A stretch of 64,000 bases of DNA from NCBI GenBank assembly GCA_009914755.4, contig CP086569.2, forward strand, positions 896,001-960,000. Reading direction: 5' to 3'. The translations under genes and the position numbers were made by a program. The stretch's first letter is position 1, and each line of letters begins with the position of its first letter. Below are positions 53,234 to 53,907 of the stretch, one piece after another. Under the pieces are notes generated by a model, which was given only the letters and a program-made list of their open reading frames with translations, was not told the DNA's origin and did not search any database. The DNA is from the human T2T-CHM13v2.0 reference genome, Homo sapiens.

Positions 53234-53907
53234 CGCCTGTCATCCCAGCACTTTGGGAGGCGGAGGAGGGTGGATCACCAGGTCAGGAGATCGAGACCAT
53301 CCTGGCCAAGATGGTGAAACCCTGTCTCTACTAAAAATACAAAAATTAGCCGGGTGTGGTGGCTCACACCTGTCATCCCAGCACTTTGGGAGGCTGAGGC
53401 AGGTGGATCACTTGAGGTCAGGAGTTTGAGACCAGCCTGGGCAACATGGTGAAACCCCGTCTCTACTAAAAATGCAAAAATTAGCCGGGCATGGTGGCTC
53501 ACGTCTGTAATCCCAGCACTTTGGGAGGCCGAGGTGGGCAGATCACGAGGTCAGGAGTTCAAGACCAGCCTGGCCAACATGGCGCAACCCCATCTCTACT
53601 AAAAATACAAAAATTAGCCAGGCACGGTGGCTCACGTCTGTAATCCCAGCACTTTGGGAGGCTGAGGCAGGTGGATCACCTGAGGTCAGGAGTTTGAGAC
53701 CAGCCTGGGCAACATGGTGAAATCCCATCTCTACTAAAAATGCAAAAATTAGCCGGGCATGGTGACGGGTGCCTGTAATCCCAGCTACTCGGGAGGCTGA
53801 GGCAGGAGAATCGCTTGAACCCAGGAGGTGGAGGTTGCAGCGAGTCGAGATGGCACCATTGCACTCCAGCCTGGGAACAGAGTGAGACTCCGTCTTAAAA
53901 AAAAAAA
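53234..53907 (+). mobile_element. Alu insertion (5'-truncated by about 18 bp) whose left monomer is tandemly repeated 4 times (units of about 133 bp at 53234, 53363, 53497 and 53631) before a single right arm and a long poly-A; TSD aaaagtagat.at
   Basis: aaaagtagatcat|cgcctgtcatcccagcactttgggaggcggagg...aaaattagccgggtgtggtggctcacacctgtcatcccagcactttgggaggctgaggcagg... (four times) ...gcctgtaatcccagctactcgggaggctgaggcaggagaatcgcttgaacc...cttaaaaaaaaaaaaaaaaaaaaa|gtagattat. Confidence 0.85.

What the first reader, a model, noticed from the sequence alone, without database searches (positions are those of the whole stretch)
53234..53907. Single Alu insertion with a tetramerised left monomer inside one TSD pair
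TSD aaaagtagat.at brackets the whole element. Between the TSDs the left monomer (ending in aaaattagccggg.atggtggctcac) occurs 4 times in tandem before one right arm and the poly-A. Because everything lies within a single TSD, the amplification happened after or during a single retrotransposition event. This is direct evidence for intra-element unequal exchange at this locus.
Basis: seen in the sequence. Interest (0 to 1): 0.55.

Follow-up and report, generated by a model that had tools for sequence, protein, structure and literature searches.

The report
Alu with four stacked left arms
A primate Alu repeat really does carry four left halves, one right half and one poly-A tail inside a single target-site duplication, but the left halves come from different Alu lineages, so it is a pile-up of separate Alu copies with one later local exchange, not one half amplified fourfold.

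Summary
Positions 53234-53917 hold a 5'-truncated left arm, three full left arms, one right arm and A21. They are bracketed by a 13/14 direct repeat at an L1-endonuclease-like site.

The interpretation (one monomer tetramerised by intra-element unequal exchange) is mostly not supported, for five reasons:
- The four arms carry three different linked lineage haplotypes.
- Five of six arm pairs are as different as unrelated Alus.
- The truncated founder arm lacks the sequence that heads the other three.
- Each left-left junction lies at the published hotspot for sense Alu-into-Alu insertion, which leaves no recognisable TSD, so one visible TSD pair does not mean one event.
- True tandem amplifications in the same window share private variants. 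This array does not.

A 122-nt tract (53375-53496 vs 53643-53764, 3 mismatches) shows one internal gene conversion or unequal exchange.

Best reading: a composite of stacked Alu copies, reshaped once by local exchange. How the extra right arms were lost, or whether they were ever copied, is unresolved.

The window itself is unusual. It is about 30% Alu, dense in VNTRs, and has about ten times the background rate of extra-left-arm Alus.

Interest is low to moderate.

The parts
53220..53233 (+). 5' target-site duplication AAAAAGTAGATCAT, preceded by CCT (an L1 endonuclease-like site CT|AAAAAG)
53234..53348 (+). U1: 5'-truncated left arm (starts at about column 19) plus linker. Haplotype: 2-bp deletion, A77, T87, GGCCAA (Sc-like). 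Carries the window-enriched C26 variant
53349..53483 (+). U2: full left arm plus linker (AAAAATGCAAAAATTA). Haplotype CT/T/G. Its 3' part is related to U4; its 5' 46 nt are not
53484..53616 (+). U3: full left arm plus linker. Haplotype 2-bp deletion/T/G. Its first 13 nt are identical to the head of the right arm
53617..53751 (+). U4: full left arm plus linker (AAAAATGCAAAAATTA). Haplotype CT/T/G. Its 5' 46 nt are closest to U3 (2 differences, 3rd percentile) and its 3' part is closest to U2
53752..53896 (+). The single right arm (S-type: GAATCGCTTGAACCC, GGAGGTTGCAG)
53897..53917 (+). Pure A21 tail. Its last 5 A also count as the start of the 3' TSD copy
53913..53926 (+). 3' target-site duplication AAAAAGTAGATTAT
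53375..53496 (+). Exchange tract, copy 1 (U2 column 27 to U3 column 13). The informative part is 53395-53496
   Evidence: 3 mismatches in 122 nt against copy 2; top 0.13% of 6,216 same-type arm pairs
53643..53764 (+). Exchange tract, copy 2 (U4 column 27 to right-arm column 13)

Best explanation
The element is a composite, not an amplified monomer.

Step 1 (shown by structure). A 5'-truncated Alu whose left arm is U1 inserted by ordinary L1-driven target-primed reverse transcription at CT|AAAAAGTAGATTAT. This insertion owns the only visible TSD.

Step 2 (inferred). Further left arms from other Alu lineages were added in sense orientation at the linker/right-arm boundary. This is the known hotspot for Alu-into-Alu insertion. 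There the linker itself serves as primer site and TSD, so the junction looks like a natural left-right junction and no new TSD or tail is visible. The right arms and tails of the incoming copies are missing for one of two reasons:
(a) they were removed later by in-register recombination between right arms, in a window that is visibly prone to such exchange; or
(b) they were never copied, because only a left arm was inserted.

Step 3 (shown). A non-reciprocal exchange of about 100-120 nt, starting in or just 3' of the conserved core and ending 13 nt into the next arm, made the U2/U3 and U4/right-arm junction regions nearly identical.

The element has no evident function. It is a record of insertion and recombination.
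For: - Three linked lineage haplotypes occur among the four arms. 0 of 106 CT-type arms carries A77. The 65-66 indel is a published subfamily marker (PMC3672193).
- Five of six arm pairs are indistinguishable from unrelated arms.
- All three left-left junctions read ...AAAAATTA|GCC(G/A)GG. [quoted passage not shown]
- The same window holds an uncollapsed example at 37283-37916 (minus strand): left arm, then a full Alu with its tail, then a linker copy, then the old right arm, with the linker AAAAAT(T/A)CAGAAATTA as TSD and the same ATTA|GCCGG junction. Two more such cases occur in human contaminant contigs, L103 and L113.
- In all six other multi-left arrays of the window, the left arms within an array are no more alike than random arms. 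True tandem arrays in the window share 9-12 derived states.
- A left-arm-only retrocopy with a perfect 11-nt TSD exists at 31228-31376.
- Subfamily-switching gene conversion is rare genome-wide: 98 cases among about 544,000 loci (PMC8230782). That argues against explaining the lineage differences by conversion of a once-homogeneous array.
- The counts of arrays with 1, 2 and 3 extra left arms in the window (about 4, 1, 1) fit serial acquisition in which each new linker is a further target. This is my own arithmetic.
Against: - No trace remains of the three right arms and tails that full nested insertions would have brought. The alternative, left-arm-only insertion at the hotspot, is not documented in the literature I could reach.
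- The three lineage markers lie within 25 nt (columns 63-87), so one short conversion tract could switch a haplotype.
- U3 differs from U2/U4 in these markers only by the 2-bp indel, so the firm minimum is two independent sources, not three.
- All four arms show similar divergence from their lineage consensus: 4-8 non-CpG changes as counted, about 4-5 once two linker-alignment artefacts and a lineage-state site are set aside in U1. Different insertion ages are therefore not demonstrated.
- No orthologous locus could be examined.
Confidence: 0.55

Rival explanations
1. One retrotransposition event with serial template switching. The L1 reverse transcriptase copied the right arm and a left arm to the 5' end of one Alu RNA. 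It then re-annealed through the 13-15 nt head homology to the right-arm head of another, or the same, Alu RNA and copied linker plus left arm again. After three such jumps it stopped early, which gave the truncated U1.
For: There is one TSD, one tail, and only the 5'-most unit is truncated. The junctions lie in the head homology. Different RNAs would explain the different lineages. Re-use of one RNA could explain why U2's 3' part, linker and following head match those of U4. Chimeric retrocopies made by L1 RT template switching are known (Buzdin and colleagues, from my own knowledge).
Against: It needs three consecutive precise jumps. U2 and U4 match only in their 3' parts and differ like unrelated arms in their 5' 46 nt, so re-use of one RNA also needs extra switches at the core. 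The window's other multi-left arrays and the nested example are explained by ordinary hotspot insertion. With a per-jump chance of about 0.1, a three-jump product is expected about 0.05 times in this window (my arithmetic).
Confidence: 0.13
2. A single dimeric Alu inserted, and its own left monomer was then multiplied by unequal sister-chromatid or allelic exchange. Later mutation and gene conversion from other Alus produced today's differences.
For: The window is very prone to tandem duplication: many VNTRs, an 8-unit monomer array, a 4-unit whole-Alu array and arrays of right arm plus tail. One internal exchange tract is real. The lineage markers are clustered, so few conversion tracts would be needed. 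Window-specific spread of the C26 variant suggests local Alu-Alu conversion.
Against: The founder arm U1 lacks columns 1-18 and the right arm is right-type at columns 14-19, so the left-type heads of U2-U4 have no donor inside the element. There are no shared private variants except in U2/U4, unlike every verified tandem array in the window. It needs at least two subfamily-switching conversions, which are rare.
Confidence: 0.1
3. The composite formed at another locus. It was transcribed through all arms (there is no internal TTTT terminator) and inserted here as one 5'-truncated retrocopy.
For: A single TSD, a single pure A21 tail and truncation only at the 5' end are what a retrocopy of a long multi-arm RNA would show. 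All units have similar divergence.
Against: No related multi-left element with shared unit-specific variants was seen among the window's other arrays. No genome search was possible. It only moves the question of how the composite arose to another locus.
Confidence: 0.1

Closest known systems
Sense-orientation Alu-into-Alu ('self') insertions at the linker hotspot (Levy, Schwartz and Ast 2010, PMC2836564)
   Same: Same orientation. [quoted passage not shown] There is no separate TSD because the linker is the primer site or the TSD. The arms come from different subfamilies.
   Different: Classic cases keep the inserted copy's right arm and tail, and the host's right arm downstream (left arm, then a full inserted Alu, then the old right arm). 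Here three such right arms and tails are absent.
Left-arm-only Alu retrocopies and free left Alu monomers (FLAM; 'recent generation of Alu monomers', Kojima 2011, from my own knowledge; paper not held)
   Same: Left arms occur without a partner right arm. The window holds an S-type example with a perfect TSD at 31228-31376.
   Different: Free monomers stand alone with their own A-tail and TSD. Here the arms are joined head to tail by canonical linkers, with no expanded A-runs.
Alu-Alu gene conversion and hybrid Alus (PMC8230782; Aleshin and Zhi 2010, as cited there)
   Same: The 122-nt tract shared by the U2/U3 and U4/right-arm junctions looks like a short non-reciprocal transfer between neighbouring homologous arms, with a boundary near the conserved core.
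   Different: Published cases are between separate Alu loci. This one is between arms of one composite element, 268 bp apart.
Tandemly amplified Alu-derived arrays (VNTR-like), seen in this window at 24990-26270 and 48505-49759
   Same: Head-to-tail repeats with Alu-arm or whole-Alu periodicity, in the same recombination-prone region.
   Different: Those arrays' units share many private variants. The target's units do not, except in the one exchange tract.
Chimeric retrocopies formed by L1 reverse-transcriptase template switching (Buzdin et al. 2002/2003, from my own knowledge)
   Same: Several RNA-derived modules lie inside one TSD with one 3' poly-A.
   Different: Known chimeras join different RNA species at one junction. 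This would need three homology-guided jumps between Alu RNAs.

Membership tests
Alu (7SL-derived dimeric SINE) retrotransposed by L1 | Left and right 7SL-related arms joined by an A-rich linker | tested here: met
   Metazoa_SRP hits at 47-65 bits fall on the right arm and on three of the four left arms (U2-U4). The canonical linker is present four times.
Alu (7SL-derived dimeric SINE) retrotransposed by L1 | 3' poly-A tail, flanking TSD and an L1 endonuclease-type target site | tested here: met
   A21 tail. TSD 13/14, with P about 1e-4 for the non-A part. Target site CT|AAAAAG.
Alu (7SL-derived dimeric SINE) retrotransposed by L1 | Dimeric architecture (one left arm and one right arm) | tested here: not met
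   Four left arms and one right arm.
Nested sense Alu self-insertion at the linker hotspot | Incoming arm begins directly after the host linker (about position 133), in sense orientation | tested here: met
   All three left-left junctions read AAAAATTA|GCC(G/A)GG on the same strand. Hotspot definition from PMC2836564.
Nested sense Alu self-insertion at the linker hotspot | Incoming and host arms are independent copies (different lineage, no shared private variants) | tested here: met
   The firm minimum is two lineages, probably three.
Nested sense Alu self-insertion at the linker hotspot | Inserted copy's own right arm and A-tail, followed by the host's right arm | tested here: not met
   There is only one right arm and one tail, and unique flank follows the tail.
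Tandem amplification of one unit by unequal exchange or slippage | Units share derived (private) variants relative to the family consensus | tested here: not met
   Five of six pairs share 0-2 derived states and have 15-18 differences. Positive controls in the window share 9-12. The feature is met only for the U2/U4 3' tract.
Tandem amplification of one unit by unequal exchange or slippage | A donor for every part of the repeated unit exists in the founder element | tested here: not met
   The left-type head columns 1-18 of U2-U4 are absent from the truncated U1, and the right arm differs at columns 14-19.
Single-event chimeric retrocopy (RT template switching) | One TSD, one 3' poly-A, truncation only at the 5' end | tested here: met
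Single-event chimeric retrocopy (RT template switching) | All modules inserted at the same time (all-or-none presence in orthologues) | not testable with these tools
   No primate genome collection is available. Flank searches in metagenome and genome contigs found nothing.
Free left Alu monomer (FLAM, pre-dimeric) | Ancient monomer sequence type (J/FLAM-like GAGCCCAGGAG body) standing alone | tested here: not met
   U1-U4 have the S/Y-type GAGGTCAGGAG body and group with the left arms of dimeric Alus. The ancient type is seen instead in the array at 24990-26270.

The most novel reading that the evidence does not exclude
Left-arm-only Alu copies may be made preferentially at the Alu linker hotspot. 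When L1 endonuclease nicks a resident Alu's linker, the freed T-rich end is perfectly complementary to the internal linker of an incoming Alu RNA (16 of 16 positions), while it pairs imperfectly with a poly-A tail. Reverse transcription would then start inside the RNA and copy only the left arm. The result would be seamless multi-left-arm Alus with no tail and no TSD. This would be an undescribed, recurrent outcome of Alu retrotransposition. It would explain why this window has five such arrays but only one classic nested insertion into a dimeric Alu.
Probability: 0.2. Interest if true: 0.5.

Novelty: new variant of a known kind. Interest (0 to 1): 0.27.

Why it matters
The practical lesson concerns inference. 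A single TSD pair around a multi-arm Alu does not show a single event, because insertions at the linker hotspot leave no separate TSD. Arm lineage markers, not TSDs, decide the question.

If the right arms were lost by recombination between right arms, the locus and its window are a compact natural record of how often short direct Alu repeats collapse, expand and convert each other in a VNTR-rich region.

If instead left-arm-only copies are captured at the hotspot, that would add a new product class to L1-mediated Alu mobilisation. It would also affect how repeat annotators and transposition-in-transposition dating treat 'Alu fragment + Alu' pairs.

No function is implied.

Tried and rejected
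- Literature searches for trimeric or tetrameric Alus, extra left monomers, or template switching with tandem left monomers found nothing relevant. Kojima 2011 and Srikanta 2009 are not held.
- Searches for the locus with unique 5' and 3' flank sequence gave zero hits in metagenome and genome contigs. No haplotype or orthologue comparison was therefore possible.
- I tried to assign the right arm to one of the left arms by the right-arm head marker (GCGCGC against GCGGGC). The marker pairs with both left-arm types in the window, so it is uninformative.
- Dating the units by CpG and non-CpG divergence from data-derived lineage consensus sequences showed all four to be similar, so it does not discriminate.
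- ORF listing to identify a gene or locus showed only repeat-derived ORFs.
- Simple single-crossover histories do not reproduce the observed order (alpha|beta)(gamma|delta)(gamma|beta). A tandem duplication of 268 bp would require U1 to resemble U3, and it does not. I rejected these in favour of a conversion-type transfer (reasoning).
- Independent insertions that each hit exactly ATTA| without homology, and deletion between the linker and an A-tail, were both rejected because all junctions keep the exact natural ATTAGCC sequence.
Subfamily names in this report are therefore approximate, and the arguments rest on marker linkage measured.
- My first TSD null (3%) was inflated by Alu and poly-A matches. 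I replaced it with the anchored test.

Full report
WHAT IS THERE

The sequence at 53220-53926 is primate Alu DNA. Reading it directly and cutting at the ATTA|GCC boundaries gives:
- a 5' direct repeat AAAAAGTAGATCAT (53220-53233);
- U1 (53234-53348), a left arm that begins at about consensus position 19-20;
- three full left arms, U2 (53349-53483), U3 (53484-53616) and U4 (53617-53751), each ending in the canonical linker;
- one right arm (53752-53896);
- a pure A21 tail (53897-53917);
- the 3' direct repeat AAAAAGTAGATTAT (53913-53926).

TRF finds period 135 x 4.3 copies. Rfam gives sub-threshold 7SL (Metazoa_SRP) hits on the right arm and on three of the four left arms, U2-U4. The non-A part of the TSD matches 8/9 at both anchored boundaries. 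Composition-matched P is about 1e-4, and none of the 45 other A-tails in the window scores above 6/9 against this flank. The reconstructed target CCT|AAAAAG is an L1-endonuclease-type site. Inside the element no A-run exceeds 5 nt. The flanks are unique in the window.

ARE THE FOUR LEFT ARMS COPIES OF ONE MONOMER?

I extracted all 64 left arms in the window and aligned them. Over 116 shared columns, five of the six U-pairs differ at 15-18 positions and share 0-2 derived states. That is indistinguishable from random pairs of arms, whose median is 19 differences. Only U2-U4 stands out, with 6 differences, the second-closest of 1,830 pairs.

I then added 178 primate contaminant contigs recovered from metagenome and 'bacterial' genome collections. 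They are human, since they contain Ya5-type arms.
- the 2-bp indel in CAC(CT)GAGG;
- position 77 (A or T);
- position 87 (T or G).

The arms fall into tight haplotypes: (CT,T,G) 97 arms, (del2,A,T) 74, (del2,T,G) 26 and (del2,A,G) 8. None of the 106 CT-type arms carries A77. The 65-66 indel is a published subfamily marker (PMC3672193). U1 is (del2,A,T), U3 is (del2,T,G), and U2 and U4 are (CT,T,G). The array therefore holds at least two, and probably three, Alu lineages.

There is also a structural argument. U1, the arm that abuts the TSD, lacks columns 1-18, and the right arm is right-type (ACGGGT) at columns 14-19. U2, U3 and U4 all have a complete left-type head (GGTGGCTCAC). No homologous exchange within a founder made of U1 and the right arm can supply that head.

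POSITIVE CONTROLS IN THE SAME WINDOW

The window is about 30% Alu and very rich in tandem arrays. Three of them involve Alu parts:
- an 8-unit array of ancient Alu-like monomers, period 134, at 24990-26270 on the minus strand;
- a 4-unit whole-Alu array at 48505-49759;
- duplications of right arm plus tail, or of whole Alus, at 13560-14870.

In all of these the units share many private variants. For example, adjacent whole-Alu units share 9-12 derived states. That is the signature of true amplification, and the target lacks it.

WHY ONE TSD DOES NOT MEAN ONE EVENT

Each left-left junction reads ...AAAAATTA|GCC(G/A)GG, so the next arm starts directly after the linker. Levy et al. (PMC2836564) showed that Alu-into-Alu insertions concentrate at exactly this point and in sense orientation. 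They counted 15,759 sense self-insertions in the human genome. They explained the hotspot by two sub-optimal endonuclease sites that flank the 15-16 nt linker, so that the linker is used for priming and little or no TSD remains.

The window contains an intact example at 37283-37916 on the minus strand. It reads: left arm, then a full Alu with its tail, then a linker copy, then the old right arm. The linker AAAAAT(T/A)CAGAAATTA serves as the TSD, and the junction is the same ATTA|GCCGG. Two further classic cases are in the background contigs L103 and L113.

THE WINDOW IS ENRICHED FOR SUCH ELEMENTS

In the window, left-to-left adjacency at about 135 bp occurs 10 times against 43 left-to-right adjacencies. 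In the background the raw counts are 7 and 197. On inspection only 3 of those 7 are real, and 2 of the 3 are classic nested insertions.

Besides the target there are arrays at:
- 6363-6779 (atypical);
- 26288-26835, minus strand (three left arms, one of them with a right-type head);
- 29398-29852, minus strand;
- 34889-35312 (its right arm has a left-type head);
- 39678-40104;
- the nested case described above.

In every one of them, the left arms within an array are no more alike than random arms. Multi-left Alus here are therefore generally composites of unrelated arms.

THE ONE REAL INTERNAL EXCHANGE

Compared at an offset of 268 bp, 53375-53496 and 53643-53764 differ at 3 of 122 positions. 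Mismatches are dense on both sides of this tract. Among 6,216 pairs of same-type arms, the U2/U4 3' part with its linker and the following head ranks in the top 0.13%. Their 5' 46 nt rank at the 43rd percentile. The tract includes:
- a private linker variant (AAAAATGCAAAAATTA), found only in these two of the window's 64 left arms;
- GGGCAAC;
- several shared CpG decays;
- the first 13 nt of the next arm (GCCGGGCATGGTG), which is the head of U3 in one copy and the head of the right arm in the other.

It ends exactly where left and right arms stop being homologous. U4's 5' part is closest to U3, with 2 differences (3rd percentile). No single unequal crossover reproduces the observed order. A short non-reciprocal transfer (gene conversion) between the two junction regions does.

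WHAT REMAINS UNRESOLVED

Full nested insertions would have brought three extra right arms and tails, and none remains. There are two possibilities.
- They were removed by in-register recombination between right arms. That is plausible in a window that shows expansions and contractions of Alu parts at periods 134, 162-170 and 307-313.
- Only left arms were inserted. A left-arm-only S-type retrocopy with a perfect 11-nt TSD and an A23 tail exists at 31228-31376, so such products do occur. Priming on the incoming RNA's own linker at a nicked resident linker would give exactly the seamless structure seen. That mechanism is my inference and is not documented.

A single TPRT event with three template switches, or a retrocopy of a composite formed elsewhere, would also give one TSD, one tail and truncation only at the 5' end. 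I cannot exclude either without orthologous loci. The flank searches found none.

Two further cautions apply. The lineage markers lie within 25 nt, so conversion could in principle have switched haplotypes, but subfamily-switching conversion is rare genome-wide (98 cases among about 544,000 loci; PMC8230782). And divergence from data-derived lineage consensus sequences is similar for all four arms, so relative ages are not resolved.

COMPARISON WITH WHAT IS KNOWN, AND VERDICT

The element works like a stack of sense Alu self-insertions at the linker hotspot, combined with Alu-Alu gene conversion. Both are described phenomena. It fails one defining feature of the classic nested class, because the inserted right arms and tails are absent. 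It also fails the defining feature of tandem amplification, because the units do not share private variants. It is best filed as an unusual variant of known Alu-in-Alu composites, not as evidence that one monomer was tetramerised.

Interest is low to moderate. The most interesting residue is the window-level excess of tail-less multi-left arrays and the possibility of linker-primed left-arm-only insertion.

Noticed in passing
window 1-64000: The window is about 30% Alu: 82 non-overlapping Alu HSPs covering 19.3 kb, with 64 left-arm and 59 right-arm cores. It is also unusually dense in minisatellites and VNTRs: 95-bp x6 at 3750-4318; 128/270/405-bp x20 at 9139-12096; 50/140-bp x17 at 33468-34314; 30/60-bp x20 at 42283-42905; a 3.9-kb array at 43683-47579 with a 295-bp higher-order period at 95% identity; 114-bp x5.6 at 57987-58628; 40-bp x45 at 61981-63803; and long (TCTA)n, (AAAAT)n, (GAAA)n and GAG-rich tracts. 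It looks like a recombination-prone, possibly subtelomere-like, region.
   Followed up: partly
window 24990-26270 (minus strand): An eight-unit tandem array of ancient Alu-like monomers with period 134. The units are J/FLAM/FRAM-like with a GAGCCCAGGAG body. The first two have left-type heads and the rest right-type heads. They share private variants such as CAGCATAGATAATA and ATTATCTGGGTGTGG, so this is a true local amplification. The array is interrupted at a linker by a 5'-truncated Y-type Alu (about 25590-25880) flanked by GAAAATTA.
   Followed up: partly
window 48505-49759 (minus strand): Four whole Alus in tandem with period about 313. Adjacent units share 9-12 derived variants, so a complete Alu with its tail was duplicated by unequal exchange.
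   Followed up: partly
window 6363-6779 (+); 26288-26835 (-); 29398-29852 (-); 34889-35312 (+); 37283-37916 (-); 39678-40104 (+): Six further Alus with extra left arms. One has three left arms, including a hybrid with a right-type head and a left-type body. One has a right arm with a left-type head. One is an intact nested insertion with the linker as TSD. Left-to-left adjacency is 10 of 53 in the window against about 3 of 204 in human background contigs.
   Followed up: partly
window left arms at 1594, 2674, 6391, 6517, 14818, 23428, 28111, 29672, 30476, 35050, 36406, 38777, 53244, 53377, 56430: The variant CCTGTCATCCCAGCAC (A to C at left-arm position 26) is in 15 of 64 window left arms (23%) against 5 of 248 (2%) in the human background, p = 7.6e-8. 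It is in only 2 of 59 right arms. Carriers belong to several Alu lineages and lie on both strands across the whole window. Right arms also show some window-enriched variants (positions 79, 86, 106). Regional Alu-Alu gene conversion is a possible cause, but this is unexplained.
   Followed up: partly
window 31228-31376 (+): A left-arm-only S-type Alu retrocopy. The left arm runs into the linker, which continues as A23, and the copy is flanked by a perfect 11-nt TSD, GAAATTGCTGT. Four extra bases (AGAG) lie between the 5' TSD and the Alu start.
   Followed up: no
window 13560-14870 (minus strand): A cluster of Alus and right arms with tails (periods 162-170 and about 307). They share private variants: linker ACAAACATTA, head GGCAGGCGCC, and GAATTGCTTGAACCCTGGAGG. 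This indicates local tandem duplication of Alu parts. One junction reads A-tail + TTAGCC + full-length Alu.
   Followed up: no
loci L121-L178 (genome contigs), e.g. L122, L128, L137, L140, L157, L162, L168, L173: 58 contigs in species-representative 'bacterial' genome assemblies carry primate Alu sequence. Several are 8-10 kb contigs of one MAG labelled Roseivirga sp. (CBDIHZ01...) with multiple Alus each, and many are short low-coverage contigs in isolate assemblies. This is host or laboratory contamination in public prokaryote genomes.
   Followed up: no
window 52890-53233 and 53918-54300: The unique flanks of the target are unusually rich in CGTTCG / CCGTTC motifs (for example ccattcgttcat, caccgttcgaaat, catccgttcgacac, agcgttcggtg), although the window's overall CpG observed/expected ratio is low (0.35). 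They are not repeated elsewhere in the window, and their identity is unknown.
   Followed up: no
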